From positions 1,240,001-1,304,000 of the forward strand of contig CDLV01000011.1 in assembly GCA_001244265.2 (NCBI GenBank): 64,000 nucleotides of DNA, written 5' to 3'. A program made the translations under genes and the position numbers. Under the pieces are notes generated by a model. That model did not search any database. It saw nothing but the letters and a program-made list of their open reading frames with translations, and had not been told where the DNA came from. Below are positions 23,591-60,514 of this stretch, one piece after another; position 1 is the first letter of the stretch; each line of letters begins with the position of its first letter. The DNA comes from Microbotryum violaceum. Its lineage: Eukaryota.

Positions 23591-23862
23591 GTTGGATTTG
23601 TCCCGGAAGACGAATCGGGGTGTGAAGAGGAGAGCCCAAACGCAGCGGCGAGCTCGCTCTGGCGCGCCGGTTGGCTGGGATGTCAATTTGGCGATTTGAT
23701 CGCATTTGATCTCATTCTCATGATCGCGCGGCAAGGCGCGGCAGGGCGCGGCAGACACGCGCCGAACTGTTTGGTCTTCTGGCGCAGCTCGCGCTCCTCT
23801 CGAGCCTTCACCCCGGTCGTACTCGCCACCATCACCGTGTCTTCTCACAGTCCCACCTCTCG

Positions 23863-26800: not shown

Positions 26801-28016
26801 GACATCTTTCCCACTCCGACTGACTCGACGTCTCACGTTATTTACTCAATTAGCTCGAAAATTCTTTCGAGGGAATCGACGTACTAGAAGCTTTGTATAC
26901 CACCTCGCTCGCCATCACCGGCAACTCTACCTCTCTCGCACAATGGGACGCCCGGCTCGGCTTCACCGGTCATGCCTTTACGGCCACACTCCGATCGCTT
27001 AGCCCCGCGGGAGGTGTCGTGCCCCTTCTCGACGTCATCGTCGAACGAGTCTTCCCTCGTGGATACATCGACGCGGGAAAAGGATCAGGAGGTGAGCCAT
27101 GGAACGAGGTGGAAGAACGACGGCGACAAGAGGAATGGCTGGTGAGCTTCGCACCAAATCAGATCTCTTGTCATCTGAGACTTATGCAAGCGGTTCCTTT
27201 CGGACAGAATGAAAGCGCTAAAGCTCGGAACGGAGGTGACAAAGCCGCCAAGGCGATGGCGTTGTGGGATGAGTTGACGGACATGCTCCGTGAAGCGGTT
27301 GAGACGAGCAGCAATGGTCCGGAGACGGCTCGGTCTTCGGCAGGTGTGTTCCATCTGCCCAAAGAGAATAGTTCGAAGACTGACGGACGGCTTGGCTTTC
27401 CAGATGATCACGATCCGGACGAGGTCTTGGATCGGCTTAAAGAGGCAGCGTCTCGTTTTCAACGCGCCAACATCGTTCGTCGTTTATCGTCTCAACACGT
27501 TACCTCGTGTTTGGACAAGTTGGCGGAGCGGGCTGAAATAGCCAAGGAAAGACGGTCTCGCGGCTATGACGTGGACGAATCGGTGAGTATATATAGGCCT
27601 GTACGACGACCTGTCCTTGGGCCGATACTTCCGTTCGACCTCTCAGCAGATGCAACGTGCTCCACGAAACGTTCGAAGCTTCCGGGTCATTCGCATTCGG
27701 GATGCTCTTGTCACGGACGAGACGAAATCGCAGCGCACTGCACAACTCACGGTGTGGGACTGCGACAACCTTGGCGATGACTTCTTGCGGGAAGGCAAAC
27801 GATATATGGTGAGTCAAGGCATAAACTGCGTATTGAGTACATGGCTTATGAATAATCGGGCCCATCACAATCGCAAACCAGATCTCGAACGCTGTACCAA
27901 AAGGCGTGTGGAATTTGCGCAGCAGCGAAATCACCCTCTCGACACGCAAGGATGCGAAATGGAAACGATTAGCCGCCTCGGGCGTTCCCATCGATAACGA
28001 TGTAGACTCTCTCTGA
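23863..28016 (+). CDS. BRH2: BRCA2 homologue (Brh2-like): BRC motif(s), helical domain, OB folds; multi-exon
   Basis: BRC-like AFFSRANGRPLPAPSEDALQVSRAMM; WVANHWSLVVWKLA, QLKYRYEREIN, PMVLCVSKI, LELTDGWYRIRA, NSTSLAQWDARLGF, AQLTVWD, LSTRKDAKW. Confidence 0.93.
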
Positions 28017-28585
28017 TTTCATTCTCTTAGTACCCTATTTCGTAGTTGCATTACATGTATTCTGAAATACTCTACGCATCGTCGTTAGCATTCATCTCAT
28101 TCTGTGTTCTATCAATTTAGAGAGCAGCGAGGCGGCTTGAGCAGTACTTCGAGCACCATGTTGCCCCGAGGGTGCGAGTGGGGGAAGGCCGCAAGGTGTA
28201 TTCGGTCGCGTTGTAGATATGGCTGGCTCTATTTATGGGCGAAGATTCGCTGATTGGTCTTTCTCCCTGCGGCGCCTGGACTCACTGCAGTGAGCTGGCC
28301 CCAGGTCTTTATTTTGAGCCGGAAGCGAGGTGCTGGATGGCCCGTCACAACAGGCTGAGACGGATACATGCTTAGTGACGCAATAATACCATGAAGGGTC
28401 TTCGGAATCCCTTCTCGGAATCGCGTGCGCTATCTCGCTCACCACACCTCGCTGTTGTCATCGGTGATGCTCGAATTGATGGTTCCACTGCAGCACTAGC
28501 CAAAGTTACCTACTAGTAGACGGCCGGGCCACGCGTCTGACACGCTGTGTAGTAAACCTGTCGAATGTGCACTTTGTACCATTTA

Positions 28586-29420
28586 CAGTCAAACCTGAGA
28601 AAAACTGTATTTTCGGTGGACGGATAAATTAAGACAGGTATAAGCTTGGAGAGTTCGGCTTCAGATCAGTACATCATGACCTGAAACTCCGTTTTTGAGC
28701 TTCCTACATCAAATCAAGAATTTTTATGCATCGTTTGAGTCGATACATTGACTTTTGAGGGGGAGGAAATTCAGAAGGCCCGAATTGCTGAATTGCAGCC
28801 AATGTACGGCCTCTACCGAGGCATGATGACATCTAACAAGTTATGAAAGCTCCAAGCAAAAAATATCTTGACCTACTGACGCTGGAAATACGAAGTCATT
28901 GTCGTCTGAATCCTCGCGGCATCCTGCTCGGCAACAAGAGCCCTGCGAATCCTCCTAGCCTCGTCCTCAAAAGAAATCAAATCCGCTGGACCTGAGTACC
29001 CATTCATAGCAAACCTAAAGAAAACATCAAGCGCTGAGATTGCCTCCTTCAGTGTCGTTCGCTCCGCCGGTCGGATCTCTATCTCCGCTTTCTCCTCTCC
29101 TCCTTCGAGTTCTCCCTCGCAATTCTCCTCCAACTCTTCGGCAATGACCAGGTCCACAATCTCCTGCTCGGTCATTTCAGCCCCATCAGCAAGGTTATCC
29201 TCCTCCACATCGACGAGAAAGTGGATACTCATCTTCTCGTTGCTCGTAAACTATCCCCTTTTCGACCAGCTCATCGTTCGTCGTCTTCAGAGCGTTCATC
29301 GCGTTGATGACGCCGCGATCGTCATCGAGAGGCCCGCGACCGTTGGGAAGAAGTGTATGGTCGGTCGATCCTTTGTTCTTGCGATCAGACAAGATTTGAG
29401 AGTGGCGCCAGCAGTTGAAT
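28586..29420 (-). mobile_element. 3' remnant of a pogo/Tigger-like (Tc1/mariner, DDE_1) DNA transposon
   Basis: C-terminal transposase motifs NCWRHSQIL, KMSIHFL, MTEQEIVDLV, TLKEAISALD, QTTMTSYF*, with a frameshift near 29248. Candidate terminus TA|CAGTCAAACCTG at 28584-28597. The partner TIR was not found. Confidence 0.7.
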
Positions 29421-30191
29421 TCCGGGAAGGGAATGAGACTATGATGATACGAGAAGGAATTTCTGATGAGGGCTTCTCGGATTGTGAAGATGTTCATTTC
29501 GGCGTCGTTGTCGGCGGAAGAGGACTCGGAGAGAGAAGCACGTCGCGACTAGCCTGTCAACGTGTAAATCGCTGCTTTTGCTCTACTGTGCTCGCTTCTC
29601 GGCTGTTTCGGGGCATTTCGGACTCTTCCAGCAGGCGGCTCGTCAACAAGAACGCCCAAGGAAAGGCCAATTCCTGATCAATCGCTCATTTCCGGCTCTC
29701 TCTTATCTTATAATTTGACCTGTAAACCCATAAATTAACGCACCGTGGGGCGGCGACGAGTCCCTGAACCTCCAGTGCCCTCTATAAACTCACACTCACA
29801 ACTATGGCCCGAGGATAGGCACTACCTCCTACTTAGCCGCAAGCGAATAAGCACCGCAAGACAAGGCTATATATAACTAGAGACTCTAACGACAAAGTAA
29901 ACCCACATTTCATTCAATTTCGACTGCATTTCATCTCAAAATTTCTTCTCTGTCGTATCCTTATTCAGACATTTCTATTTCCGTTGTCCAAACAAGGTCC
30001 AGGAACCCTTTCTTTCCCCACCATTTGCTTGAGACCAATCAAGCATGAGCCTTCCCGGTCCTGCGGTAGGAGCCAGCCGCGCGCTCCGAAGAGACTTCAT
30101 TCATGATCCTCGTCGGCGGCCTCTTTCGCCTGCGCATGGACCTGGTTCTTGTTGTTGTCAGTGACTGTTGAACGCCAAGTAACCAAACCCG

Positions 30192-35180: not shown

Positions 35181-35574
35181 GTCACTTTGGGCTCACATAA
35201 GGTCGGCTTTTGGGCCCACGTCGGAGGCACTCTGGTCCCACACCGGAGGCGACTCTGGTCCCACACCGGAGGCGACTCTGGTCCCACATCGGAGGCGACT
35301 TTGGGATCACATCGGAGCGGACTTTGGGATCACATCGATGCGGACTTTGGGATCACATCCGAGTTCATTCTTGTACCACGTTCATGGGAACTTTGGTACC
35401 ACATAGTGTAGAGGCCTGTATCTCTTGCAATATGTGATGTATCACTCTGGGGAATGTAGTATGATGTATGTACAGGTCTATAGTACTTCTGGCCGGTGAG
35501 ACGAGGCGGACAATGCAGTAGTTGCTACATCGGGGTTCTTCCCCGCTGTGCCGCTCCGCGCCCGTGTCAGCGGT
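35181..35574 (+). repeat. Left TIR with ~10 tandem 23-bp units (GACTYTGGKMYCACAYCGGAGGC-like)
   Basis: Reverse complement of 43793-44142; the aligned non-repetitive part is roughly 85-90% identical by eye. Confidence 0.93.
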
Positions 35575-36050
35575 TAAACCTTACGCCGATCGTCACGAGG
35601 CAGCAAGCGTAGCTTGCAATAAATATCATAGGGTGGAGCAAACGTTTTTTCTTGCTGACTAGAATACTTATGCGGTAATGGCATAATCACTACATGGGTG
35701 AGCTGTAGTGTTCCTTAGGCCTGCAATCGTTAGCACCCTTATTCGAGAAAATTCAAACATTCGGCGAAAGCCCTGGGGCCGCGCCAAAACTAGCAGGCGC
35801 TCGTCGTTTGACGGGCTACACCGGCAAACTCACGAATGCCCCTGAAAGCAGCTCCTTTCCTCAGAGCTTCACACGCTCACTGGTCTTTCCCCCACTCTCT
35901 CTTTCTTCTTACACATAAAGTCCTCACGTAAACACTCCTCCCTACCTTAGTCGCGCGGAAATACTGTGCATCTCGAGCAAACGACGCCCAGTGAAGGGTT
36001 TACCTTCAAGGTAGATGGCGCCAGTCGCACTCATCATGTCGACAGGATAA

Positions 36051-39000
36051 ATGAGCCAACTGCTCCAAAACAAAGGGGGCCGACCACCCATCGCGTTGCA
36101 GGAACAAAGCTCCCCAGAGGGATACGCATCGGAAGTTGACTCGGAAGTGGATGAGGATGAGAACAGTCTGCAAGTCTTGGCAGCTTTGGTCCCGGTTCCC
36201 TCAAAGTCCTCAATATCTAGCCCCTCCGCAGTCTCGGGGCTTTTAATCTCTCCAAAGAGCCGTTCGAGAGACTCCGACGAGGATTCGGCAGACGAGGGTT
36301 ACTACGGAGTCGACGACGACAATTCGGACGAGAAATCAATTGACAACATCTTCTCGGCACTACTCCTGGCTCGGAACGACAAGAAGATCCTTGACCGGCA
36401 CACGTACGAGCCCTCTCGACAGGACAAAGAGTTATTGAACACGACGCGCGAGGCAATTTTCTCAAACATGATCCTCACGACTGCAGAGCACAACGAGCTC
36501 CGTCTCAGGCCGCTTGTTCTCAATTGTCGCAAGCCGAGGTCCGAATGGGAATTTGTACGCAAACTTCCTGTCCTGGAGCTCCCAAAGTTCATGGCTACAG
36601 AGGTATGTTGAAGCTGCATGCTGCGCTGCGTTTTGTTTCGTCCTGTGAACGACCTAACTTTCATTGGTGCGATCTATTAACAGAAGCATGACTGGACTCC
36701 ACGCAAATATGAACGCTGTCTCGCTGTCGTCGAGCGACCTTACGGTGACGCGCCATCGTCTACTCATCATCAACATCCGTCGGAGGTGGCAGTGGGGATC
36801 GAATGGCGTCCGGAAGTGCCTATCACCCTTCGAGAAGCTTGGAGTCAACCCGGCGAAGGTCGACCTGTTGCGGAGGTTCTACGGATTACACATCGTTGCT
36901 CGGGGCCTGTAAAAGAGTTCGGGTCAAGGATGGCAAACTTGGGTACAAGAAACGAGACAATGACAAGGACCCCGGGAAAACATGCTCTACTCAACTCAAG
37001 GTGATCATCCCGGATAGGAAATCAAAGGAGCTTGGGTTGGGTGGCTGATAAGACTCTCTGTTACCTTCTTCGTCCCTTGTGTAGATCCTCGTTCAGGCCG
37101 ACGATCTTTCATTGGCGCTGGTGTACACCCTCGGCAACCACGAAGGACGCCAACCACCGCCGAACGTCCGACGTCCAGCCCCTTTCATTCGTGCGTTGGC
37201 GCATCAGGAAGTCTTTCGGCAGGCCAACACGCCCACGCTTGCATTTCAAAGTGAGTGTGTGCTCCAAGTTTGCACAAGAAGTTTTCACTTCTCAAGACTG
37301 ACCATCAGTTCCTTTCTCGATGATGGACTCGATCATTTCACAGATATGAACCAGCGGATGTCGGTTTGGGAGAAACAGAACGAGATCATTCTCCCGCAGT
37401 ACAGGAAAGTCGGCGCAAAGCAGCTGCGCAATATGTTCAGGGCAAAAGGTCGACAGAACGCGCAGCATGGATCCGCCTTGTACTCGCTAGCTCGCACAGC
37501 TGAGCTGAGACCGTTCACCCTTCAAATTGCAACGGAGCCCAAGACACGCGGAGTGGCCTAGTGAGTGATCACGATCTAAGCTGCTTGCCGATCTGATGAG
37601 CTAACAAGCGGCGGAGGTATTTACCCTTGTCAGCTTTCAACCTTTTAATGAGAAAACGAGGCAGCCGTTGATCTGCGTCCTTGCCTCCCTCCACTCCATC
37701 GACGTGTTGATTTCCTTCGCCACAGTTGGGAACGATTCAGGCGATTGGTCGCGGTTTGTTGGACTTGACTCAAGCTGGCGATACCTGAACGAGAACCGCG
37801 CCCCCTCACCGCCCTCGTCGCGACTGGCTTGAAAGACAAACTTGCGCTAGGTGAGAGCCCGGGAAGCACTTGAAAGGAAGGTCCGGACGAGTACAAAGAC
37901 TCATTTCATCGCTTATGTATTGTCTTCTTCAGGTCCTATGCTTCTCTCCAGTGATGTGAAGGCAGATACTCTCGTCATCTACTTGGACACGGTAAAGAGG
38001 CTGGTCGAGGAGCGCGCCGCGATCCTTGTAAGGAGTGCGTTGTAAGATGGGTTGACCAGGGTGTGCTGCGCGTCACGACAGTTTTGAGAGGAGTCGCTCA
38101 CGCCCTTCCGTACCGTCGACGATTTGCATGCGTACTTCAGAAGCTCGTGAGAATGGGCCCAATCTACCCGGCTCGTCCCCCAGGTTGCCAAATCTTCTCC
38201 AAAATGCCGAATTCATCTTGGAAAATCAGTGGCAACCACCAAATTTCATGATCGACAAATGTCGGACTGAGCTCAACGCCTTGACACTCTGTAAGCGCCG
38301 CTGCTTGCTAGGGCTACTATATGAGATGTGCAGACTGCTCTCACGATTTTGAATTCCTGGTGATCGTCGTCTTCTGCATCTACGTTACTATAGGGAAAGA
38401 AAAGCACAACCTCAACTTTCACATACGCCTTTGCCAATTCCACGTGGTTCAGGCCATTATTCGGTGGTCGAGTGACAGGAATGACGGCGAAAGGGGCAAC
38501 ACCGTCAAGCCTTCTCGGATTGCTCGCAAAACGTTGATCAACATTTTGTACGAATTTTGATCCATCATCCAGCGCTTTCGTTTCATACGCACCGAGCATG
38601 AAACAGATGCCGAGGCGACAGCTCAGCGCTCGGCTGAGTTCGAAGGGAAGAAGCGGGCGTTCTTTGAAAAATCGGACGCATGGATCAACAAAGAGTTCCG
38701 AAGTCGTCGCAAGCCAGCAGCAAACAAATCAGACGTCACCAAGAAGTCGGAACTGGGTTGCAACAGCCGAGAAGAAGAACAATTACAAGCAAAGAAGGAT
38801 AACTTTCGGGCGTATTTCAATGTCAACTGGTTCGTACAAGAGTGGATCGGTGAGTCTTACTTATTCCTTCTTTACGTGTTCTCTCACAGTTTTTTTGGCT
38901 CACTCATTTCCACAATTCTGAAGAAACATACACAGATGATGGTTTACCCCTTGGCGTTTCACGGGAAACCATCAACACCAACAACGTGACTGAACGAGCC

Positions 39001-41860
39001 TTCAAGACCATTCAGCAAGAGCATCTCCACGGCCGAGCCAACAAGAGGTATTGCGTAGCACCGGACTCAAGGAGCGAATCTCGACGGAAGAGCTGACAAT
39101 TCTGCTTGCGCTCTGCACCTGCTAGGATCGACAATCTCGTTGTGGTCTTACCCGACAACGCTCTAGTTTATAACATTTGGAAGGACGTATCGAATGCAAA
39201 ACCGGATCATGTTCTTCGAGATACTCTGGCAAATTCGATGGACATCTGGGAGCTTGGACAGTTCCGCCCTACCGATAAGGAGGGCCAGTGGGTGCTTAGT
39301 TTACGGTGAGGTTTTACGGGTACCAGTGCCTTGGCTACCAAGCCCTTACTGACGCGAGAATGCTTCGGATTTCAAACTCAGATCCATGGATTCATCAATC
39401 ACTCTCGATACTCGCGCGCCTTATTGTCCTTGTCGCGCATTCAAGCAAACAGGAAATAAATGCGCTCATCTTTGGGCGTGCGATCTGCTGGTTCACAATG
39501 GCGACTACCACACAGCGATGAGTGCGTCCGAAAGCTTTGATCACCCTCGTAGCGGCTTCACAAGCCTACAATCTGACAATTGGTGTGGGATTTCTCTTGC
39601 AGACCGCATCATGGCAGCAGCAGCAGCGGCAAAAGCAATGTCGGACATGCGGGACGGAACAAAATCAAGCAAGCTCCACGACGCCTCCGTCGAAGCCTTG
39701 GTCGACAAAGTATTGGGCTCTAAAATGCCATCGGCTTTGGAGGACGACAACGAGCCAGACGAGCCCTTGTCAGAGGACGAACTCGACGAACGCGACGAGA
39801 TGGATTCGGACGTCGAGGACGAGGACGAACGCGCTGCCGATATAGCCGATGTTGCTGAATTTCAGCCCAACTGCTCAACTGTCAAAGGTGAGCAATGTCT
39901 GAACGCCTTGCCGGAACGGAGGCTTCCGTTCCAATCTGGTCTTGTTCTGTCACACAGGCAGATCAGCCAGGGATCGGCCATCGCAACCCCATCGTAGCAA
40001 GAAGACAGCCAAACCGAAACTCTCAAAATCGAAGTCAAATTCAGGGGTCACGCTCGAGCACTCGGAGAGAGTCGATGGCAAAGCAACGGCAGTAACTAGA
40101 CGTTTGATACGCGACAAGCTCAATCCTGATCAACTTCGTCCAAAAACTTCCAAACACACCATCTTTGAGAACGGAACCACTCAGTTTGGGAAGACCCGTG
40201 GACGCCCACGTGAGACAAAATTTTCCAACAGCTTATCCTGGACCAAGGATCACGCGGCTGCCAAGCGAATGGCGGCCATTCCCGAGGTCATAGACATCGA
40301 AGAACTGAGCGACGACGAGAGGTCACCATGCCAGCTCGCGCCGTTACAAGAAGGACGTCTTCCACTCGACATCTACGATACAGTTCAGCCGGAGGAGCGC
40401 CGAAGCAATGTTTCCGCCGTCAAGGACATTATCAAGCGCATTCTCAACGAGGTTCAGAAGGTTGATTGGGAAGTATTCCTCGACATTCACGCCGGCGACC
40501 ACGCACCAGGCCTGAACTTGAGCTCCTTGCGCGAAATGGCCAACGCCAATTTGTGGTTGAGGGCTTCGCACATCGATGCTTTCAGCAGCGCTATCAATCG
40601 GTTCCTGTCGTTTGATATGTCATCCGCGCAGATACCACAGGCACAGACACATATCAGAGTTTGATCTGTTTAAGTTAGGGAGCGCGCGGGGCTTTTCTTC
40701 CCGCGCGGCTGTTTACTCTTGGTAGCTTTCTCATCACTCGCTCTACATTGTGGTCCTGACTTCTCGGTGTCGTGCACCCTCACCTATCGGAAGGTTAGTT
40801 ATGGAATACTTATTATCACTCGCTCTACATTGTGGTCCTGACTTCTCGGTGTCGTGCACCCTCACCTATCGGAAGGCTTTACTTCCGCGCTCTCATCGTT
40901 TCTGCGATAGTTCCAAGGCCAATTGCCTTTCAATGGTCGGTCAAAAGAGGTTCTTGACCTTGAACCAACATGCTACGCATTCTATCTCGAAGGAGGAAAG
41001 TGCGCCAAGGGAATTGGAGGCACTCGACCAACCGAGCGGCAACAGGGGGTGAGTTCGGATGGGAGTTCGCGAGCATATCTTTCTATCATTATTGACAGGA
41101 GGCCTGCCTCTTTGTTTGCGCTGCCCCTTTACCAGATTATCCTTTCTCGAACACCAGTTCTACTCTTCCCAACTCATGTCACCAATCATTGGATACTTGT
41201 CGAGGCACGCCTTTCGGATTGTACATTTCGGGTGTACGACTCTCTTTTTGGCAGGTAGAACATGCGCAAGGAGGCAAACGAAAGTCTCGATGTGAGTTCA
41301 TCCCCATGACCATCACAAAGCACTTTCAAAGGCGCTCAAACTCTGCGCAGCTGCTGACGTCATTCGCCCTTTCTGCCTGCCAGTCGATCATCACTTTCTT
41401 GGAAACTCGTGCAGAGGGACCGATAGAGCGCATCACTGGAGGCATCGATCGACTGACGGTCCCGTACAGAAATTGGAAGCGATTGATTGTCAAAGCGGCG
41501 AAGGCCGGCGATCAGCCTCAACCGGATAGATATCCTCAACAGACTGATGGCAACGCGTGTGGGGCGTTCGTGTGCCGAGCGATGGAAACCCTGGTATGCG
41601 CAGCAGTCGCCAAAATGGAACCCGATTGGAGCTGGGGCCCACAGGTTGAGCCCGGAAGATTTTATTCGGAGCTTCGAGACTATATGTTGGATGTCACCCT
41701 GCACTCTCGTCTACAATGCGACATGAGCTCGTCTTGGTTTTCGGGCTCGCCGGAGTCTCCAACCGTCTCGTGTGCTACTCGTGACCCAGACAACACAATG
41801 GATAGCAGGAAGCCTCATGGCAATACACAGACTGGAGATCACGTCGGTGAGTTCGAATAG
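36051..41860 (+). pseudogene. Spliced MULE-type DDE transposase fused to SWIM zinc finger and Ulp1/C48 peptidase (disrupted)
   Basis: D1 FVGLDSSWRYLNENRAPL (37767), D2 FMIDKCRTELNAL (38254), CxxH IRLCQFHVVQAIIRW (38432), E NTNNVTERAFK (38992), SWIM YCPCRAFKQTGNKCAHLWAC (~39422-39481), Ulp1 NHWIL..VYDSL (41184-41246) and PQQTDGNACGAFVC (~41534-41575). Frameshift at 36902-36905 and in-frame TGA at 38558-38560. Confidence 0.85.
40733..40876. repeat. Exact 62-bp direct duplication (period 82) within the Ulp1-coding region/intron
   Basis: ATCACTCGCTCTACATTGTGG...CCTATCGGAAGG at 40733-40794 and 40815-40876. Confidence 0.95.
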
Positions 41861-42559
41861 GATATTGAAGCTCCTGCATGCTCTATTGTCCTAAGGAGCT
41901 CTGCTCTTCTCCTCCTCATGTCCCTTGTTGTTTCGGAATGACTCACCCCTGATCTCATCACCCGGCCATTGTTTCGTGCGCCGGCTACTGTGGTAGTGCT
42001 AAACGGTTGCGATTGGAACTTGTGCGCCGAACGCGACATGAGAGGAGAGAGAGCGACGACGGGGACGGGCCGTACGCGAGAGGGGCAAAGCGCGCGCGGG
42101 GAACTGGCGGCGCCGAGATGGGAGAAAGGGGAGGAGAGAGAGTTTGAACTGGGACGGGGACGAAAGGCTCGGAGACTTGGACGCTTGAACACTTGAACAC
42201 TTGAAAACACACACACACTCAAATTCCCAACAATGAAACCGTGAGATCTAACCAGCACCAACCGTATGGCCTGATTCTTCCTGAAGTGATCTACCTAAGA
42301 AAGAGAGCAAACCGAGTCCCGTCGAGCCACAAAAGTCCCCAAGTCCCCCTTGTCCGTTGCGCTGTCCCGAAGCGGCCCGCCGCCCCCTCTGCTCTGCTAC
42401 CTCCTACAATTCGCAAGCCTTCCGAGGTACCAGGATTCTCGAACTCGATGATACATGTGATCACTGAGATGTTTTGATAAACTAGTTGTACTTGTCCTTC
42501 GTTCGATCCTCTGCCTCTTGTACGCGAAGGTGTCGTTTGGACAATCTGAGACTTCTCTC

Positions 42560-43593
42560 CTTCCGATGCCTTTGGCGTTCGCGAATGGACTAGGGTAGCC
42601 AGAGCCAGGAGTCGACTAGCGCTCGGGGACAGGATCGGAGGTCGTCGCGCGCGTGGGTAGAATTGCCTCATCCGGCGCCGGGTCAATCGAGTCACAGTTG
42701 TCGTCGGTGAGTCGTCGGTCGTGCACAAAGAAGATCCGGCCATCAAAAGCTTGGATCGAGAAGGTCACACTCGTCGCAAGTGGCGCTGTGGAGGGAGCAT
42801 GCCGACCCATCGAACACCCGTTTACACCCGTTTAGCGCGGCGGAGCTCGGCAGTCAATTGGGTGCACGATCCGGAGTACCACACTACAGCAGTGACGACG
42901 CGGAAGAAGTCTCACAACATCACAGTAAGTTCCAGGACAGAAAAAGCAACTTCTTGGCTTTGCTCGTGCCCTCGATTCCAGATTGTCACTCAATGATCCT
43001 TCCTCTCTTCGTGTCTGCGCCGCTCTAGTTTCCACCCCTGTGTCTACGAGATCCGTAACCTTCGAGGGGTCGAGACTTGCAAGGAATGTTTCGTTCTCTG
43101 CTGACACAGTCATTATCCAGCACCCACAACCTGGCGGTTTGTCACACGTGGAATCTGTACAAGGAAACAACATGTCGACAGCACGAACTCGTCTTGCATC
43201 GGACCAATCCGATTCGCCCCTAAACCGACCAACGCTCGCCTTTCCTTCATTTTTGCCAGTATTCGCCACGCGCGACATCGAACACCTACCAAAGAAATGC
43301 AAGTACTCTGCGGTTACTCAAGAGAGTAGCCCTTCCGCTGTTGTTACTCCCAGCAAACGGCGTCATTCGGCAGCGGAAAGCGTGACCCCGAGCTCCAGTC
43401 GGCGGAAAGCTTGCTCGCAATGTCGAGACCGAAAGTTGAAGTGTGATATAGATCATCCATGCTCGAAGTAGGTAAAGTCTAGTATTTCATCATACCAAGG
43501 AAGAGCTGACAAATGGTTTGTTCACTTTGAGCAGCTGCACTAAGAAAAGGAGAGGTAAAAGCGAGCCAAGTTTTTACATGTGAATACGTTTAA
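42560..43593 (+). pseudogene. Second element-borne ORF (decayed) ending in a Zn(II)2Cys6 cluster
   Basis: RRKACSQCRDRKLKCDIDHPCS | intron 43468-43534 | NCTKKRRG..; the sixth Cys (TCEYV*) is one base out of frame at T-run 43571-43575. Upstream WLCSCPRFQ is SWIM-like. The 5' boundary is approximate. Confidence 0.7.
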
Positions 43594-43792
43594 ATATCGT
43601 TCAACTGCAATGATCATACAAGCAAAAGTCCGCCGATGTCGAAGCGTGACTTATTAGAATCTGTATCTTCGCTCGATCTCTATAAACTGTTCTTCGTGGA
43701 TGAGAGAAGCGAGGGACCGGTGCCAATTCTGGTCTAATCCGAGTCGGCGCAATCACGTTCGGGAGTGTCGGCCTTGGCGGTTCGGGCGCTGG

Positions 43793-44142
43793 ACCGCTGA
43801 CACCACGGGCGCGGAGAGGCCAGGCGGGGCAGAATATCGATGTAGTAGCTACTGCTTCGTCCGCCTCGTCTCACCGGCCAGAAGTACTATAGACCTATAC
43901 ATGCATCAAACTACTGTTCCCAGAGTGTTACATCACACATTGCAAGAGATACAGGCGTCTATACTATGTGTTACCAAAGTCCCCATGAACGTGGTACAAG
44001 AATGACCTCGGATGTGATCCCAAAGTCCGCATCGATGTGATCCCAAAGTCCGCTCCGATGTGATCCCAAAGTCGCCTCCGATGTGGGACCAGAGTCGCCT
44101 CCGATGTGGGACCAGAGCTGCCATTTTCGGGACCAAAGTGCC
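43793..44142 (-). repeat. Right TIR with ~8 tandem 23-bp units
   Basis: Inverted copy of the left TIR; ends CCAAAGTGCC versus left GTCACTTTGG. Confidence 0.93.
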
Positions 44143-46233
44143 CTGCTATTCGCGGGATTAACCTAATTCCGTTTTATTATACAGTTTTAAGGATTTAGCA
44201 AAGTGGCAAAGTTGCTGATGAGTATTCCGAAGATGCTAAGTCGAGTTGAGTTTAGCATTGAGGAACACGAAATATAAGTATGTACTAGTGAGCACAGTGC
44301 ATGCTATTCTGGGCGACCGATCAGTACGCACCTGAACCTAAGTTCGAACGCCGGGGGACAGAAATGATTCGCCGCCTGTTCAAAGCAGCAGATTAGGACA
44401 CCGATGCCAGAAGTAAGCAAACGTGGTCAGATACGTCCAGTATTTATCGTCTTTCAATTCAGCGCACTGAGGGCTCGCCTCGTCAAGCGTTGTAATCCCT
44501 CCGGCTCGCCAATCTGTTCAGGAGCCATGATTAACGGGCAACCGTGGAGGCGCCGAGGTGGAATTTTCTGATAACACGGGGACGTATGGGTATTGTGCGC
44601 CCCAAAGTCTGGTTCTGAGATTTGGAGATGGGCGAGACTAGAGCACTGTGTGAGAGACGCGCAACTGTTCTAGGAGCTTGTCTTTGATCCACTTTGAGTG
44701 GGCCTCCCCGGTGGCACCAGACAAGTGCCGAGCTACCGGCTGGCGTTGCGAGGAAACAATCACTCGTCGTGGAAACCCAAAAGATTTCAGTCGTATACTA
44801 AAATGGCTATTCATAGGAACTGCGTCATTCTACGATCGTACCCTATAGATTCGTGAATTTGAGGCGCTCCGATCCCGCCTGATGCACCCTGGCTTTTCCA
44901 CCACAAGTCCGCCAATGGTCAGCTCAGCCCAGGTCATTGGAACACGCGCGCTCACAGTCCTAGGCACCTTTTCTGGCCTTTTGGCTTAGATCAAGTGTAG
45001 TATCTGTTCTTATCAGTTTTGATTACTGATAGTTGTTCAACGAACAACATCCAATCAAATCTTATCTTTCATTGCCAGGGTGTGCAGTTCTGGGGCTTGC
45101 CCTCCTGCCTCCCAAGATGTCCGTGCTATCTCACTTCCAGCACGGTACGTCACTGGCGCTATTTTTGTCTTTTGCCACTGGCCCACTCTCAATTCCTTTT
45201 TACTTCTCTGTTTGTAATACCTGGACACCAAGGGGGCAATAAGGGCGCGCAACACTACACAGCCCTAACGAATGGGATACGTGATAAGAAGCCCATAATA
45301 CTCCGCGGTGGAGTAAAAGCGGGTTCCTCGGTAGTACTCTCGAAGGTGCTTGACAAATTGAACAATGAACTGATCCGTTGCAGAGCGAAACGTTACATCA
45401 GCTCACTGTGTGGCGGACAAGGACGAAGTCGGGCAGTCTGAAGGATCATCAAGAGAATTACTCACCGTCCCTCCTGGGGTACGATCGAAGATTGTCGGTG
45501 CAGTCAAAGCGTCAACGGGCGCGCACCTGAACGTGCTGAACGACGACGCGCGCGATCCACAGGGGCGCAGGGATAGGTTCCGTTTTCTACTGGACCCCAG
45601 GTGCGCCACAGCCTATGCATCGCCCACTCACTCCCGGAGGTCGTTGACGGTACCGTAGGAGCACCTCATTGGGGCATAGCGAGTGCAGGCTCTGGCGTTC
45701 TTGAAGAGCGAGGCGCAGGACGCGCAGGCATCATCTGCGATACAGATCAGATTCGTCCATCATTACACAGTGCCGTAGAAAAGCTTACGCTGGCCTCGGT
45801 GAGAGGCGATGTAGTGAAACTAGGACGTAAAGTAAACGATGGATAACTTCTGTGGAGCGTGCCGAGACGGGATAGCGAGCGCGGAGAGTAAGAAGGCCGA
45901 GGAGGAGGAACATAACTCACCGATGAAAACCTCATGTCCCTCGCAAGGACTGCGCATCTTGGCTTGGGGAACCACTTTCTTCATACTGCGAGTAGCAGTT
46001 GAATAACGGGAGTGAAGAACAAGCCTAGCGGCAACGATGATGTGAGGATCTATCATAGAACCTTGCTTGTAAATCTTCCCAGTAACGCCGCACAGAGTTA
46101 CCGGAGCTGCCGCAGAAGCTTGACACAGAGTCCCATTGGGACTTAGAGTCGACGCATTGCAATAGCCTGGCAGCAGTGCAAAGGTCTAAGGGGAAGTGTT
46201 GAAGGTGTTAGTAGACCTTGCACTGATATCAAG

Positions 46234-46306
46234 GGCCGGATAGCTTAGTTGGTCAAAGCTTTTCCAATGGATGGAAGCGACCCAGGTTCGACTCTTGGTC
46301 CAGCCG
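46234..46306 (+). tRNA. tRNA-like gene, nominal anticodon TGG (Pro) with atypical anticodon loop; possibly a pseudo-tRNA
   Basis: Cloverleaf: GGCCGGA/TCCAGCC acceptor (1 mismatch), GCTT/AAGC D-stem, TTTCC/GGAAG anticodon stem, CCAGG-TTCGACT-CTTGG T-arm. A and B boxes are intact, followed by a TTCTTTTTTT Pol III terminator. Confidence 0.7.
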
Positions 46307-47399: not shown

Positions 47400-50300
47400 T
47401 CAGAGTTGCGGAGGTGCAGCACCAGGCGGGAGGGAGCCGCCCCCTGAGGTCGGAGAGAAGACGGCGTCCTGTCCGCCTTGGGAGGGCCTTGATCGCTGAT
47501 GCGACGATGTTTGACCTTGCTGCGATGGTCTACGCGTACGTTGGATGACCCTCACGCCTTCCGAGCCTGGAACAGGTCCCGCATCTACGAGGCTGACGCC
47601 GCGTGGCTTACTTGGCTGGCGCGCAGGTCTCGACGTGTCGGTAGCGTTGGACGCCGAAGGGATGTTGCTCGAGCGACCGGAGCGACCTTGCGACTCGTCG
47701 GGTGTCGAGTTTCTCCCAACCTCGGCTGGGAAACTCGCCGTCGAGTCGAGAGCCGGAGAAGATCTCTGTTGCTCGCTGAGGATGGCCTCCCTTTCCAACT
47801 CGTCGCTATCATAGCCCTCGGCGAAGCGAGGGTACTCGTGCGCGTGCCCATTATGGAACGAGGTCGTGGAAGAGTGCGCGCTAGCCACTTGTTGTGCCAA
47901 CGGCGCAGGGAGCTCGAGCTGAGTAGGGTAGCGGGGAACGGTGCTCAAAGAAGCGCTCGCTGGCAGAGAGTTGTACGTATCGGTTGAGACGATCGAGTGA
48001 CGGTAGCTCGTCGAGCGGTGTGGGGAGCCGTGACGGATGTGCGCATTCAGAACGTCGTAGGCCGAGTCGCGCGAGAGCGCTCCGGCTCGGTAGCGACGAT
48101 CGCGTTCAAAGTCGGCCCATCGCTTCATGACGATATTGCTGCTGTCAAACGTACCGTCCTTGTCAGAGTGCGAACGTCCATCGTCACCCGCGACCTTGCG
48201 AGTCTGACCCCACGAGAAGTCGTCCATGTGCAAGAAGGCGTAGACAGGGAGGACAAAGTTCCAGATCGGCAGCGACAGGAGATAGATCATCATCCAGCCG
48301 AGATACTCGACCTTGCGCGACGTTACGACGATGAGAATTGCCGGGATACCGAGAATGATGGCCAGCAGGATGAGAGAGAGGACAGGTTTGGTCGTGCCGG
48401 GGATGATGGCGATGACAATGAGATATCTGTAAGACGGACAGCAAGTTCGATCAGTCCCAGCGTAATACGGTGTATTGCGCAGCGCGTCATAAGCTCACGT
48501 GGTGAAGGCAATGGCAGCAGGCAAGACCAAGGTACCAGCCAACTCCATGAAGATGACGAAGCGCATCGAGAAGCAAAATACACCGCAAAGATCGGGGACC
48601 TTGAATAGCTCGAACAAGTTGTGTATGGTCGAGTTGATCCAACGACGACGTTGCGACAGAAGGACTCGAAACGTGTCAGGGACCACGGTCTTGCACACGG
48701 CCTGGGGGCAGAACATCATTTTGCGGCGCGGGAAGGTCGACAGCATCAACGTCGTCAAGTATCGATCTTCTCCGAGGAGCAGCAGGTTCTTCTTGTGCAG
48801 CGTATCGACGACGTTCTCCGAGTAGTGCATGACGATGTCGGGGTTCGCGAGCACGGGCACCCAGTATCCGTCGGCTCCCTTTGGCGCCTTGATGCGGTAC
48901 ATCGAGAAGCAACCGGGAAGGCAGGTCACACCACCAAACATGGATTCGAACGCCTTCGTCAAGTGATGTGACACGTAGTATTCGAACACTGCGAGATCAA
49001 CTTCGCGTCAGCACTCATCCAGAGCAAACACCAGTTCGACTATGCCCACCTTGGATCATCGTCACCCACGTCTCGCTCTTGTTCGCGATCTTGGTCTCAC
49101 CGCACAATCCCATAATTTCCGGGTCGTGGACCATGCACGAGATCATGCGCGAGACTGAATCGGGGAAAATCTTGGTGTCGGCGTCGACCATGAGCACGAC
49201 CTCGTATCGGTCCGGCGAGATGCCGGTGCATCGCCACAGCGAGTTGAAGAACTCGTACTCGAATGTCGTCATGCGCTCATCAAACATGACCTTTTGCAGG
49301 AAGCTCAGCAACATGACTTGCGAGTCACGCTTGCCTCGGTTGCCCGGTTTGGGATCGTTGGCCTCGGACGGGTTGCCGATCTTGGCGACGAGCACGATCG
49401 GTACGCGCTGTTGCTTGCTCATTTCGACGGTGTTATTGTCATAGTCGTAGAAACCGGCAAATATCTTGGCCTGATTATGTGCCTTGTGCCCATCGGCGAT
49501 GGCGACGTACGATTGCGGCTCGACCTCTTGGACCGGCACAACGAGCTCCTTCATCATGCCGAGCACGATCTCTGGCGTCGTGAGACGATTACCCGATCCC
49601 TTAACCATGCCGTCGGCGATGACGAGGATGACCTTATGCGAGTTGGGGTAATCGGTCGTCGAAAGCGAGTCGAGGGTGGTGCGCAAGCCCTCAATGGACT
49701 CGGAGTAGGCCGTGACGAGCAAGATGGAGTGCACGAGGGGGTAGTTGAACGGCTGGTAGTCCGCCGGGGGTTGCGCAACGACGTCACCGAGAGGGAAGGG
49801 ACAGCCGGTACCGTTCCCGAGAGAGTCGCCGGTGGGGGAGCGAGACATCATGCCGTAATTGAAGACCGAGGGGGGGAAGGAAGCCGAGCTGGGCGACGCG
49901 AGCCCACCGGGCGAACCAGGTGGGGAGTTGCGCATCGCGCCGCCGATAAAGTCCTTGCTGCTGAGACTGGGCGCCATCGACTTGCGGTACTCGCCGTACT
50001 TGTTCTCCGCACGCGGTGACGTGACTCCTGAGCCGGCGGCATGTGCCTTGAGCAAATCACCGCGAGAGAATCGACTCTTGTTCGGCAGCATCGACTTGCG
50101 TTGCAGCTTGACGTTGGGGCGGAAGCGCGCCGGGGCCGGACGATAGATGTCCTGGGTCCAGTTCTCAATCTCACTTGCACGTGCCCGTCGTTGCTCGTAG
50201 GTCTCCTGAGGAAAACGACCAATCTTCCACGACAAAAACCAGCCAAAGATGACGGCCATCGCGAAACGGATCACCACGACACCGATAATTACAACCAGTG

Positions 50301-52228
50301 AGACGTAGAGCACGACGTCGGACGCGACACAGCCGATTGAGTTCGAGTCGACGAAACCGACGCGGATCGTGTCGACGAGGCATTCGGCGACGCGTCGCTG
50401 CTTCGTTGAGACCATGTGCGCGGTGATGTCGGTCGCGGTGAAGGTCGAGTTCGGGACCATGAGCGCATCAAAGATAGGAGGGAACGTGACTTGCGTTTTG
50501 TCGAGCCAAGTTAGCAACGAGAAGTCGAGAACAGCTCTGTGTGAAGTATCAAATACAACTGCGAGTCAGCCCGGAGCGTTTAGACGGCAAGGCACACGCA
50601 CACGCAAGCTTGTGACCTTACCCATCGTAGACACCCAGATTCCTCGATGCGTTTTTGAGGTCACTCCATTCGAAATAGACCTGTCCCTGCGACTTGAGCT
50701 TACTGAAGGCGGTGCGAGCGTCGGCTTGCGTGTGGCACAGTCGTCCTTCGGAGTAGCCCGTCAAGTTGCGCGTGCTCGTACCGTATTGGTTGTAGAGGTT
50801 ACAGGGGAAGTACCAGCCGAGCTTGTTGCCGGAGGTCGGGATCCCGGTGCCTGCGGTTGGGGTAATGATATCGAGGCACTTTTCGTTGACCTTCTGGAAG
50901 AGAAACGAGCCGTCCATCCCACCGGCGCCAAAGGATGAGTAAAGCGGGTTCGTGCCGGCGCCGATCCCGTACGCTTCGACGTGGGTGAAGTTATTGAGGT
51001 CATAATCGTAACCGTGAAAGATCATCGAGCCTCCTTGGATCGTGTTGTGGCGGTAGCGCAACGGCGGCGTGCCACACACGGAGCTGGTGAAGCCGAATGT
51101 CAAAAACCCGACCGCAGCCATGCAAGTCGCGATGATGCAGAGCATGCCGATCTTCTCCCGCCACGCATCACGACGACCTTTAGAACGCAGACCTGTGCAT
51201 AAAACCCAGAGTTCGCGCGTTAGTCGCTGGCATCATCGACTATCGCAGCAGCGAGCGCAGACCACAAGCAGCGCAGCGCGGAGAGCGGAGAGCGGGGAGC
51301 GGGGAGCGGAGAGCGGAGAGCGGAACTCACCAAAACATTTGAGCAGGGCGGACGGGACAAGAATGGTGACGACTCTGCAGAAGACCATCCACGGGCCAAG
51401 AGGCTTTTTCTGCATATTGGACATGCGACTCTTCTCGTATGACCCTCCGGCCTTCACGGCCTGGTTCGATGCACCTGATTGAAGGTTGTTGGGGCGGCGC
51501 AGCGTCGTGCCTCGCTTGAACATGCTCAGCCCGGTTTCGGTCGCCATGCCTTCCTCGCGGCCGAGCACGCTCTTGCCTCGACGCAGGCCAGTACCTGATC
51601 CGGGGCTCGCCGTCGAGTTCCCTGCCACGATGGAGGGGTCGACATGGGACAAGCCAGCGGTCGCGGTGTGGCCGGTCCGAGACACTGCGGCGACGCCTCG
51701 GCCCTCGAGCTCCATCACTGCGGCGTGCTGGCGGTAGTTGTAAAGCCGATGCGACTCGTCAACGCGCTCTCGATCGGGTCGCACGAGTGACTTTTTCCTT
51801 CGGAATCCGTTCCCTGCAGCACTCAATCCCGTTGCTGTGGCCGAGGTGTCGTTGCTGTTAAGGTGGTGGGGGTTCTGCGACGTCGAGGCACCCCCGGACG
51901 GCGGTTCACCCGTCGCGCCTCCGCCTCCGCCGCCAGAGCCGAGCAGGTTCGCGCGAGATGCATCGAGCACGGAGAACTGCACCCTCGATGACGAAGCACC
52001 CGCGACGGCGGGCACCGACAGGTCGGACCCGTTCGCGTAAGGGTTGGGCATCAACGGCGGTCGAGACGGCTGAGGGTCCTTTGCGTAATAGGAGGGGGCG
52101 GACAGATCGGTGCCGCTTGACGATTGTCGATTGATGGACGGCGGCAGTGCCTGCGCTCGCTGTGGCCTCGCACCGACGCCCAGCGCCGACGCGGGAGCCG
52201 ATCGAGCGGGTCGTCCGAAGTCGTCCAT
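47400..52228 (-). CDS. Chitin synthase, class IV (yeast Chs3-like, no myosin motor), multi-exon
   Basis: [86 protein letters not shown]. Confidence 0.96.
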
Positions 52229-60261: not shown

Positions 60262-60514
60262 GCTTCGTTGCTGGAGGAGCTGCAGGCCAACAGGAAAGAG
60301 AAGGAGGGACTGACACCTCGCGCGCGGTCATGAACGCACGAACTTGAGCTCGGACCGCTTTTGCGAACGAGCGCGCGCGAAAAGCGAAGCAGTAGCGAAG
60401 CCGGCCCAGCGAGGGTTAGTCATCCCGGCGTCGACATTGTGTTCGTTTCGCTATCACCACCCATCCCAGCGTACAGCGTACAGCGTCGAACGCGCCGATC
60501 GCGCCTACCTCGAC

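What the first reader, a model, noticed from the sequence alone, without database searches (positions are those of the whole stretch)
35181..44142. Long-TIR Mutator-like element: transposase-SWIM-Ulp1 fusion plus Zn2Cys6 gene
Seen: a discrete ~9 kb unit with ~350-390 bp inverted ends. It carries an intron-rich gene with a Cys/His N-terminal region, a complete D-D-CxxH-E core (GLDSSWRYLNENRAPL / MIDKC / LCQFH / NTNNVTE), a SWIM finger and a Ulp1 catalytic triad (H-D-C with the oxyanion Q), followed by a second gene with a fungal Zn2Cys6 domain. Known: MULEs carrying Ulp1-like domains exist in plants, and Zisupton elements carry SWIM and Ulp1. Inference: this is a divergent basidiomycete MULE family with its own deSUMOylase (a candidate anti-silencing function) and its own transcription factor. 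The combination may be undescribed.
Basis: partly seen in the sequence, partly recalled or inferred. Interest (0 to 1): 0.78.

Follow-up and report, generated by a model that had tools for sequence, protein, structure and literature searches.

The report
Decayed fungal Mutator transposon with protease
This is a broken copy of a 9-kb Mutator-type jumping gene of anther-smut fungi whose transposase is fused to a SUMO-protease-like domain and, unusually, to a fungal zinc-cluster DNA-binding motif; the kind is known, the zinc-cluster add-on seems new.

Summary
The unit is real. Window 35181-44142 is bounded by inverted ends of about 394 and 350 bp, of which 319 nt are 91% complementary. Each end holds an array of 23-bp subterminal repeats found nowhere else in the window.

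The element carries one intron-rich gene of about 20 exons. It encodes a Cys/His N-terminal domain, a D-D-CxxH-E core, a SWIM finger, a Ulp1/C48 domain with H-D-Q-C and a Zn2Cys6 cluster.

The core is Mutator-like, not KDZ/Zisupton:
- Its HMMER relatives (177 representatives, all named ones Basidiomycota) include many proteins that hit Pfam MULE.
- None of 76 proteins scanned hits a KDZ model.
- D, D and E are invariant in 40 aligned relatives.
- The best solved fold is the IS256-family ISCth4 transposase (Z 11.3).

C48 is common across this clade. MULEs with C48 are already described in plants and animals. The Zn2Cys6 cluster occurs only in this one Microbotryum family. Two independent annotations of sibling copies splice it onto the transposase, so it is not shown to be a separate gene.

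The window copy is dead or damaged, with three in-frame stops and two homopolymer frameshifts. No target-site duplication could be established.

Verdict: a new variant of a known kind, of modest interest.

The parts
35181..35574 (.). Left terminal inverted repeat (about 394 bp). The outer end reads GTCACTTTGG.
35209..35363 (+). Array of 23-bp subterminal tandem repeats (6.8 copies; unit ~TTTGGGCCCACATCGGAGGCGAC, each with CGG).
   Evidence: TRF. The motif search gave 9 matches in the window, all inside the two TIRs, against 0.14 expected.
36015..41860 (+). Transposase-SWIM-C48 reading frame, about 15 exons. Siblings start at ATG 36015. Here a TAA at 36048-50 precedes a second ATG at 36051. The in-frame stop at 41858-60 applies if the last donor is not used.
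   Evidence: tblastn of sibling proteins; splice junctions
36684..37144 (+). N-terminal Cys/His beta-rich domain (C-x-G-x-C ... C ... H), probably of the WRKY-GCM1/FAR1 type.
   Evidence: Alignment A2, model with pLDDT 75.7. Top PDB representatives are WRKY domains at Z 4.1 and 3.9, AFT2 at 3.7 and FLYWCH at 3.0. The match is weak.
37761..38994 (+). DDE core: D 37767-9 (GLD), D 38254-6 (MID), C/H 38432-43 (LCQFH), E 38992-4 (NNVTE).
   Evidence: D264, D364 and E567 are invariant and C409/H412 at least 90% conserved in 40 relatives. Coordinates. Fold.
39425..39469 (+). SWIM zinc finger CPCRAFKQTGNKCAH.
   Evidence: Pfam SWIM E 0.041 on the window ORF. It is significant in relatives. C660/C662/C672 are nearly invariant.
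41172..41569 (+). Ulp1/C48 catalytic motifs: His 41187-9, Asp 41238-40, Gln 41540-2, Cys 41558-60.
   Evidence: Pfam PF02902 E 2.8e-7 in sibling P0002. H-D-Q-C is kept in 29 of 43 relatives. Weak alignment to SENP2 over both motifs.
36902..36905 (+). Lesion: the G-run is one base shorter than sibling proteins require, giving a frameshift inside the N-terminal domain.
37801..37805 (+). Lesion: the C-run is one base shorter than siblings require, giving a frameshift 11 codons after the first catalytic Asp.
38558..38560 (+). Lesion: in-frame TGA where siblings have Arg, between CxxH and the catalytic Glu.
41256..41258 (+). Lesion: in-frame TAG where siblings have Glu, between the C48 His/Asp and Gln/Cys.
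41847..42876 (+). Putative 1030-nt intron. The GTGAGT donor lies 11 nt before the stop; the acceptor is AG at 42875-6. It joins the C48 frame to the Zn2Cys6 exons.
   Evidence: Sibling models P0002, P0004, P0005 and P0006, and independently P0164 (MVLG_07067), read ...GDH(V/I)G-YSSDDAEEVSQHH-ISTPVST.... Window junctions. No RNA evidence.
42877..43657 (+). Four small exons (42877-42924, 43029-43467, 43535-43554, 43629-43657). They encode a serine-rich stretch and the cluster CSQCRDRKLKCDIDHPCSNCTKKRRVRRC, then SVTY and a stop.
   Evidence: Pfam Zn_clus E 6.6e-4 on the window ORF and 4.5e-6 on P0002. A unique GT-AG solution gives the canonical Cys spacing.
43793..44142 (.). Right terminal inverted repeat (about 350 bp), with 23-bp repeats at 44006-44117. 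The outer end reads GGCACTTTGG on the reverse complement.

Best explanation
Window 35181-44142 is a decayed copy of an autonomous-type cut-and-paste transposon of the Mutator superfamily (a MULE). It belongs to a clade spread through Basidiomycota.

Architecture. In intact siblings one long spliced gene makes a single protein with these parts, in order:
- an acidic N-terminus;
- a WRKY/FAR1-like Cys/His DNA-binding domain;
- a DDE (D-D-CxxH-E) RNase-H-fold transposase;
- a SWIM finger;
- a long disordered linker;
- a Ulp1-like C48 cysteine protease.
In this Microbotryum family only, a Zn2Cys6 cluster is added through a 1-kb intron.

Inferred mechanism. The N-terminal domain, and perhaps the Zn2Cys6 cluster, whose class reads CGG triplets, bind the CGG-bearing 23-bp repeats in the long TIRs. 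The DDE core then cuts and rejoins the ends. The C48 domain removes SUMO or another ubiquitin-like modifier from some chromatin, repair or transposase substrate, which favours transposition. The splice at 41847 may decide between isoforms with and without the zinc cluster.

What is shown: the structure of the unit, homology to MULEs, conservation of the catalytic residues, presence of the modules in siblings, and decay of this copy.
What is inferred: DNA-binding specificity, the protease substrate, splicing, and any activity.
For: - TIRs and repeats.
- Siblings: multi-copy relatives in M. silenes-dioicae, M. saponariae and M. lychnidis-dioicae, 76-97% identical per exon.
- Family size: phmmer with the core of P0002 found 177 representatives at E<=1e-3 and 90 at E<=1e-10.
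- Pfam MULE (PF10551): 23 of 29 relatives at E<=0.05, 20 above the gathering score. Also 1 of 30 and 3 of 11.
- Alignment of 40 relatives: D264, D364 and E567 invariant; C409/H412 and the SWIM Cys at least 90% conserved.
- Core model: pLDDT 81, pTM 0.75. Best solved folds are the ISCth4 (IS256 family) transposase at Z 11.3/11.0/9.6, then Hermes at 9.3.
- N-terminal domain model: the top hits are WRKY, AFT2 and FLYWCH.
- C48: 16 of 30, 4 of 29 and 8 of 11 relatives. H-D-Q-C in 29 of 43.
- Tree: the Microbotryum and Phenoliferia clade nests among Pfam-MULE-positive rows.
- Zn cluster: the same splice appears in two independent annotation sets, and the Cys spacing is canonical.
Against: - The Microbotryum proteins themselves give no Pfam MULE hit, even at E<=10. 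Membership rests on intermediate sequences, motifs and fold.
- The fold margin over hAT is small (Z 11.3 against 9.3), and Foldseek alone gave no match at E<=0.001.
- The WRKY-like match is weak (Z about 4).
- No target-site duplication was found. There is only an 8-mer with one mismatch that does not abut the ends, and about 3 such matches are expected by chance.
- No RNA evidence supports any intron, the 1030-nt one included. One junction (about 40605/40911) has no canonical donor in this copy.
- The window copy cannot make the protein.
- CGG in a 23-bp GC-rich unit is not itself significant.
- In M. saponariae copy P0004 the fourth Cys of the cluster is Arg.
Confidence: 0.85

Rival explanations
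1. The Zn2Cys6 exons are a passenger. They would be a captured 5' fragment of a host zinc-cluster gene (Pack-MULE-style transduplication) or a separate small gene, with no role in transposition. The fused gene models would then be artefacts of the gene callers.
For: - The cluster is absent from the second Microbotryum family and from all other relatives scanned: 0 of 30, 0 of 29 and 0 of 11.
- It sits next to the TIR behind an unusually long 1030-nt intron.
- The protein ends six residues after the last Cys, with no linker or dimerisation part.
- Sibling model P0003 stops at the stop codon before the intron.
- P0004 has lost one Cys.
- MULEs are known to capture host fragments (passage read in PMC4948706).
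Against: - No host parent was found. The only proteins matching the 147-aa exon were element copies, 5 of 5 hits.
- The open frames hold no start codon of their own. The one Met is Ile in M. saponariae.
- A consensus GTGAGT donor sits just before the stop.
- Two annotation sets agree on the splice.
- The exons are kept open and about 77-95% identical across three species, similar to the rest of the protein.
Confidence: 0.35
2. It is a Zisupton/KDZ-superfamily element, as suggested by its large size, its SWIM finger and its basidiomycete host.
For: - SWIM is part of the canonical Zisupton architecture and KDZ elements are 6-11 kb (passages read in 10.1101/2024.08.15.608186).
- Zisupton makes 8-bp TSDs (passage read in PMC12730594).
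- The only flank repeat seen here is an imperfect 8-mer.
Against: - No KDZ_trans (PF18758) or CxCn hit in 76 proteins scanned, nor at E<=10 in P0002/P0004.
- Relatives hit Pfam MULE instead.
- The best solved fold is an IS256-family transposase.
Confidence: 0.03
3. It is a domesticated host gene, an exapted MULE transposase like FAR1/MUSTANG or the ZSWIM genes, and not a mobile element.
For: The protein is long, has many domains and many introns, and lies among ordinary host genes: BRCA2-like, chitin synthase and M16 peptidase.
Against: - It is framed by 350-390-bp inverted repeats with subterminal repeat arrays.
- Many divergent and truncated paralogues occur per genome.
- This copy carries stops and frameshifts.
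Confidence: 0.03

Closest known systems
C48-MULEs / KI-MULEs (Kaonashi) of plants, and MuDR-type elements with Ulp1 of Hydra and lancelet (passages read in PMC4948706 and PMC2836005)
   Same: A Mutator-superfamily transposase together with a Ulp1/C48 protease domain, often with long TIRs. The function of the protease is unknown in those elements too.
   Different: - In the plant KI-MULEs the C48 domain lies in a second gene. Here it is fused to the transposase after the SWIM finger.
- The host is a basidiomycete fungus.
- The Pfam MULE model does not detect this subclade directly.
- A Zn2Cys6 cluster is appended.
MuDR/MURA, Jittery and FAR1/FHY3-type architecture (WRKY/FAR1 zinc finger + MULE core + SWIM). 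This architecture is recalled from general knowledge, not from a call.
   Same: The order N-terminal Cys/His beta domain, D-D-CxxH-E core, SWIM finger, and long TIRs.
   Different: - The protein is much longer (about 1500-1650 aa).
- It has extra C-terminal enzymatic and DNA-binding modules.
- There is a single gene, with no mudrB-like partner.
- The TSD is not established.
ISCth4 / IS256-family bacterial transposases (PDB 6xgx, 6xg8, 6xgw)
   Same: The best structural match of the predicted core: Z 11.3, 243 residues aligned, rmsd 5.3. That IS256 is the prokaryotic wing of the Mutator superfamily is recalled knowledge.
   Different: Only about 10% identity. These are bacterial proteins with no SWIM, C48 or zinc-cluster modules.
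Zisupton (KDZ class) transposons of fungi and fish
   Same: Large DNA transposons of basidiomycetes whose transposase carries a SWIM finger.
   Different: The defining KDZ transposase and CxC domains are absent here.
Ginger1 transposases with C-terminal Ulp1, OTU or PHD domains (PMC2836005)
   Same: A transposase fused at its C-terminus to a Ubl protease, sometimes followed by a small zinc module. A relative here, P0166, has C48 followed by PHD. Three relatives carry UCH instead of C48.
   Different: Ginger uses a retroviral-type integrase core, not a MULE core.

Membership tests
Mutator superfamily (MULE/MuDR) | Sequence homology of the catalytic core to recognised MULE transposases | tested here: met
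   The homology is indirect but strong. phmmer relatives of the core (E 1e-5 to 1e-47) hit Pfam PF10551 in 23 of 29 cases, 20 of them above the gathering score. The Microbotryum clade nests among them.
Mutator superfamily (MULE/MuDR) | Direct hit of the protein itself to Pfam MULE (PF10551) | tested here: not met
   No hit in P0001-P0006 at E<=0.01, nor in P0002/P0004 at E<=10. The subclade is too divergent for the model.
Mutator superfamily (MULE/MuDR) | DDE triad with a C/DxxH motif between the second D and E, in an RNase H-like fold with an inserted helical domain | tested here: met
   D264, D364 and E567 invariant and C409/H412 at least 90% conserved in 40 sequences. Model pLDDT 81. Best folds are ISCth4, Hermes and P-element transposases.
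Mutator superfamily (MULE/MuDR) | Long terminal inverted repeats | tested here: met
   About 394 and 350 bp, with 319 nt 91% complementary.
Mutator superfamily (MULE/MuDR) | Target-site duplication of 9-11 bp (range recalled, not from a call) | tested here: inconclusive
   Only one old copy is available. The best flank repeat is an 8-mer with one mismatch, displaced 2-3 nt from the ends, and about 3 such matches are expected by chance. No genome is held.
Mutator superfamily (MULE/MuDR) | N-terminal WRKY-GCM1/FAR1-type zinc-finger DNA-binding domain | tested here: inconclusive
   Conserved C..C...C...H pattern. Five of the top nine of 48,161 PDB representatives have this fold (WRKY x4, FLYWCH), and AFT2 may too, but Z is only 3.0-4.1. 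Foldseek found none at E<=0.001.
Mutator superfamily (MULE/MuDR) | SWIM finger C-terminal to the core | tested here: met
   CPCRAFKQTGNKCAH. Pfam SWIM is found in 4 of 30, 13 of 29 and 3 of 11 relatives.
KDZ / Zisupton | KDZ transposase domain (PF18758) | tested here: not met
   0 of 76 proteins and none at E<=10.
KDZ / Zisupton | N-terminal CxCn zinc-chelating domain | tested here: not met
   No CxC family appears in any of the Pfam scans above.
KDZ / Zisupton | 8-bp TSD | tested here: inconclusive
   as above.
Peptidase C48 (Ulp1/SENP, clan CE) | Pfam PF02902 above the gathering score | tested here: met
   Siblings score 24-31 bits against a cut-off of 20.7. Relatives reach 81 bits. Window fragments alone score 15-17 bits.
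Peptidase C48 (Ulp1/SENP, clan CE) | Catalytic His-Asp-Cys with the oxyanion Gln at Ulp1-like spacing | tested here: met
   His to Asp +17 and Gln to Cys +6 in the window. H-D-Q-C in 29 of 43 relatives and H-N-Q-C in 5 more. That this spacing matches Ulp1 is recalled. In this copy a TAG separates the two halves.
Peptidase C48 (Ulp1/SENP, clan CE) | Isopeptidase activity on SUMO or another Ubl | not testable with these tools
   Needs a biochemical assay.
Fungal Zn2Cys6 binuclear cluster | CX2CX6CX5-12CX2CX6-8C | tested here: met
   CSQC-RDRKLK-C-DIDHP-C-SN-C-TKKRRVRR-C after removal of two GT-AG introns, which is the only solution found. Pfam Zn_clus E 4.5e-6 in P0002.
Fungal Zn2Cys6 transcription factors | Linker, dimerisation region and fungal-specific TF middle homology domain | tested here: not met
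   The reading frame ends six residues after the sixth Cys. No Fungal_trans family appears in any scan.

The most novel reading that the evidence does not exclude
The Zn2Cys6 cluster is a working part of the transposase. It would be a fungal-specific transcription-factor DNA-binding module recruited by a MULE to read the CGG-bearing 23-bp subterminal repeats, possibly switched on or off by use of the splice donor that sits just before the stop codon. As far as my searches show, this would be the first zinc-cluster domain serving a transposon. It would also be a ready route by which such elements could scatter binding sites for, or compete with, host zinc-cluster regulators.
Probability: 0.25. 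Interest if true: 0.6.

Novelty: new variant of a known kind. Interest (0 to 1): 0.35.

Why it matters
- Ubiquitin-like proteases (C48, OTU, UCH) have been picked up again and again by unrelated DNA transposons, and nobody knows why.
- This clade shows the association is old and conserved in Basidiomycota. The catalytic residues are kept in most copies, and one subclade has swapped C48 for UCH.
- Microbotryum grows as haploid yeast-like cells, so the question could be put to a bench test there.
- The lineage-specific Zn2Cys6 addition is a small, concrete example of domain traffic between transposons and the largest family of fungal transcription factors.
- For genome annotation, these 1500-2500-aa 'hypothetical proteins' with SWIM and Ulp domains should be masked as transposon genes, because Pfam's MULE model misses the Microbotryomycetes branch.

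Tried and rejected
- Whole genome: none is held. Copy number, empty sites and TSDs of siblings could not be examined at the DNA level.
- Sequencing runs: 20 rows from 7 studies hold part of the stretch (best share 0.67), and no RNA holder is listed. There is no evidence either way on expression, introns or empty sites.
- TSD search: nothing convincing.
- Other copies in the window: none.
- Host parent of the Zn2Cys6 exon: only element copies were found. The search is word-based, so this is weak evidence.
- Pfam on single window ORFs: only sub-threshold hits.
- PDB by sequence with the C48 domain: only SENP2, at E 0.87.
- Foldseek against PDB: no match at E<=0.001 for either model.
- Earlier scan notes: nothing.
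- Zisupton original paper: not held. No held paper has both 'Zisupton' and 'Ulp1'.
- Tree with named Hop, MuDR or KDZ references: not possible, because no named reference sequences were obtainable with the tools.
- In the tree the label 'none_seen' includes rows I never scanned with Pfam (for example P0158, P0161, P0163, P0169, P0172, P0174, P0176) and many truncated models. One row (P0073) was dropped by the program.

Full report
**The unit.** The inverted ends are real. Arms 35248-35566 and 43804-44122 are 319 nt long and 91% complementary. BLASTN of the region against the window gives 326 nt at 91.4% and finds no other copy in the 64 kb. A global alignment of the two ends has 332 matches, 28 mismatches and 73 gapped columns. 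The gaps arise mostly because the left arm has two more outer 23-bp units than the right. Tandem Repeats Finder reports a 23-bp array at 35209-35363 (6.8 copies) and arrays at 44006-44117. A 16-nt core of the unit occurs 9 times in the window, all inside the two arms, against 0.14 expected.

**Surroundings.** The element lies among ordinary genes: a BRCA2-like OB fold at about 26.9 kb, chitin synthase at 47.4-50.6 kb on the minus strand, and an M16 peptidase at 60-62 kb. A U2 snRNA gene lies at 44966-45159 and a tRNA-Pro gene at 46234-46306.

**Relatives and the gene model.** A search with the SWIM-bearing ORF found long proteins of Microbotryum silenes-dioicae, M. saponariae and M. lychnidis-dioicae. 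Laid back on the window, they define about 20 collinear exons from 36015 to about 43657, 76-97% identical per exon. Most junctions have good GT...AG signals. One junction, about 40605/40911, has no canonical donor in this copy. Its 300-nt intron holds an exact 62-bp direct repeat.

**State of this copy.** Measured against the sibling proteins, the window copy is damaged:
- One base is missing from the G-run 36902-05. Siblings read RCSGACKRV.
- One base is missing from the C-run 37801-05. Siblings read NENRAPLTALV.
- TGA at 38558-60 replaces Arg.
- TAG at 41256-8 replaces Glu.
- TAA at 36048-50 replaces Glu, just ahead of a second ATG at 36051.

The two frameshifts lie in homopolymers and could be assembly errors. 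The stops are substitutions. This copy therefore cannot make the full protein.

**What the core is.** Pfam sees no transposase family in the Microbotryum proteins, even at E<=10. A full HMMER pass over 1.84 billion representatives, with residues 197-887 of P0002, found 177 proteins at E<=1e-3 and 90 at E<=1e-10.
- Of 30 long hits, 16 carry Peptidase_C48, 4 carry SWIM, and 1 carries MULE plus UCH.
- Of 29 further hits, 23 carry Pfam MULE at E<=0.05 (20 above the gathering score), 13 SWIM, 4 C48 and 2 UCH.
- Of 11 more, 8 carry C48, 3 MULE, 3 SWIM and 1 a PHD finger.
- None of these 70, nor the 6 proteins, hits KDZ_trans or a CxC domain.

Named members come from Microbotryum, Phenoliferia, Tilletia, Mycena, Roridomyces, Lentinus, Earliella, Phellopilus, Polyporus, Dendrothele, Athelia, Pholiota and Marasmius. 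All are Basidiomycota and all are labelled hypothetical.

In an alignment of 40 relatives, D264, D364 and E567 are invariant. These are the GLD, MID and NNVTE of the window. C409/H412 (LCQFH) and the SWIM cysteines are at least 90% conserved.

An AlphaFold model built on that alignment has pLDDT 81 and pTM 0.75. Foldseek ranks the P-element, ISCth4, Hermes and RAG1 transposases first, but none at E<=0.001. The VIA-align second look puts the IS256-family ISCth4 transposase on top at Z 11.3, 11.0 and 9.6, ahead of Hermes at 9.3.

In a quick maximum-likelihood tree of 73 cores, the two Microbotryum families (4 and 6 rows) are sister to Phenoliferia (SH-aLRT 98). They nest among Pfam-MULE-positive Agaricomycete rows. 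The three UCH-bearing proteins form one group (SH-aLRT 86).

I conclude that the core belongs to the Mutator superfamily, in a branch too divergent for the Pfam model. It is not KDZ/Zisupton, whose published architecture is KDZ domain + CxC4 + SWIM with 8-bp TSDs (passages read in 10.1101/2024.08.15.608186, and in PMC12730594).

**N-terminal domain.** A conserved C-x-G-x-C ... C ... H pattern folds into a beta-rich domain with pLDDT 75.7. Against 48,161 PDB representatives, the best matches are two WRKY domains (Z 4.1 and 3.9), AFT2 (3.7), two more WRKY domains (3.5 and 3.3) and FLYWCH (3.0). The scores are low, so I call the domain WRKY/FAR1-like only tentatively. If so, the order zinc finger, DDE core, SWIM matches that of classical MULE transposases, which is recalled knowledge.

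**The protease.** Siblings pass Pfam's C48 threshold (E 2.8e-7 to 3.8e-5). The window keeps His 41187-9, Asp 41238-40, Gln 41540-2 and Cys 41558-60. The spacing is that which I recall for Ulp1, and a weak SENP2 alignment covers both motifs. Across 43 C48 domains of relatives, 29 keep H-D-Q-C and 5 have H-N-Q-C. This argues that the protease is used by the elements.

**The zinc cluster.**
- The ORF at 42929-43471 has no start codon before the cluster except one Met, which is Ile in M. saponariae.
- A consensus GTGAGT donor sits 11 nt before the stop of the C48 frame.
- The M. silenes-dioicae and M. saponariae models, and independently the M. lychnidis-dioicae model MVLG_07067, all read ...GDH(V/I)G-YSSDDAEEVSQHH-ISTPVST.... 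This implies a 1030-nt intron.
- Two further small introns give a single solution with canonical spacing, CSQCRDRKLKCDIDHPCSNCTKKRRVRRC, followed by six residues and a stop.
- No host gene resembling the exon was found.
- The cluster is absent from the second Microbotryum family and from all other relatives scanned.

It is therefore a lineage-specific C-terminal addition, not a complete transcription factor and not demonstrably a second gene. Whether it is functional is open.

**Mechanism.** I commit to a cut-and-paste MULE mechanism. DNA-binding modules recognise the 23-bp repeats, the DDE core catalyses excision and integration, and the C48 domain acts on a SUMO-like conjugate to help transposition. 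The last two clauses and the DNA-binding assignment are inference.

**What is in print.** MULEs with Ulp1 in plants, Hydra and lancelet, and Ulp1, OTU and PHD on Ginger1 transposases, are described in passages of PMC2836005. C48-MULEs with the protease in a second gene are described in passages of PMC4948706. C48 is treated as an accessory domain of fungal DNA transposons in a passage of PMC5751038. TIR elements including MuDR/MULE are pooled without detail in Microbotryum (passages of 10.1101/2022.08.03.502670). A search for Zn2Cys6 + MULE + transposase gave one paper, unrelated by its title. I found no description of a zinc cluster on a transposase, but Repbase and Dfam could not be searched.

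**Limits.** There is no DNA of sibling copies, no reads and no RNA evidence. No TSD was established. No named reference transposases were available for a tree.

Noticed in passing
window 44966-45159 (+) and 46234-46306 (+): A U2 spliceosomal snRNA gene (Rfam RF00004, 127 bits) lies about 0.8 kb from the right end of the element. A tRNA-Pro(TGG) gene lies about 2 kb away. The insertion therefore sits in a small-RNA gene neighbourhood.
   Followed up: no
window 40733-40794 and 40815-40876: An exact 62-bp direct repeat (82-bp period) lies inside the unusually long intron (about 300 nt) between the linker exon and the first C48 exon. The donor of that intron is not canonical in this copy.
   Followed up: partly
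proteins P0090, P0126, P0134 (relatives): A subclade of the same MULE family carries a ubiquitin C-terminal hydrolase (UCH, PF00443) in place of C48. This looks like a swap of one Ubl protease for another.
   Followed up: partly
protein P0166 (Earliella scabrosa): This relative has a PHD finger after the C48 domain. The C-terminal tail of these transposases therefore seems to accept different small zinc modules, Zn2Cys6 in Microbotryum and PHD here.
   Followed up: no
protein P0170 (Phellopilus): This gene model fuses eIF2-alpha/S1 domains to the N-terminus of a MULE-C48 protein. It is probably a gene-model merger or a captured host fragment.
   Followed up: no
window 23710-29677 (+), 47400-52246 (-), 60314-62328 (+): Flanking host genes are a BRCA2-like OB-fold gene, a class IV-type chitin synthase and an M16 (insulinase-type) peptidase. 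The region is gene-rich, not a repeat desert.
   Followed up: no
protein P0164 (MVLG_07067): This M. lychnidis-dioicae copy has Gln in place of the catalytic His of C48 (NQW instead of NHW). It is another sign that many copies are decaying.
   Followed up: no
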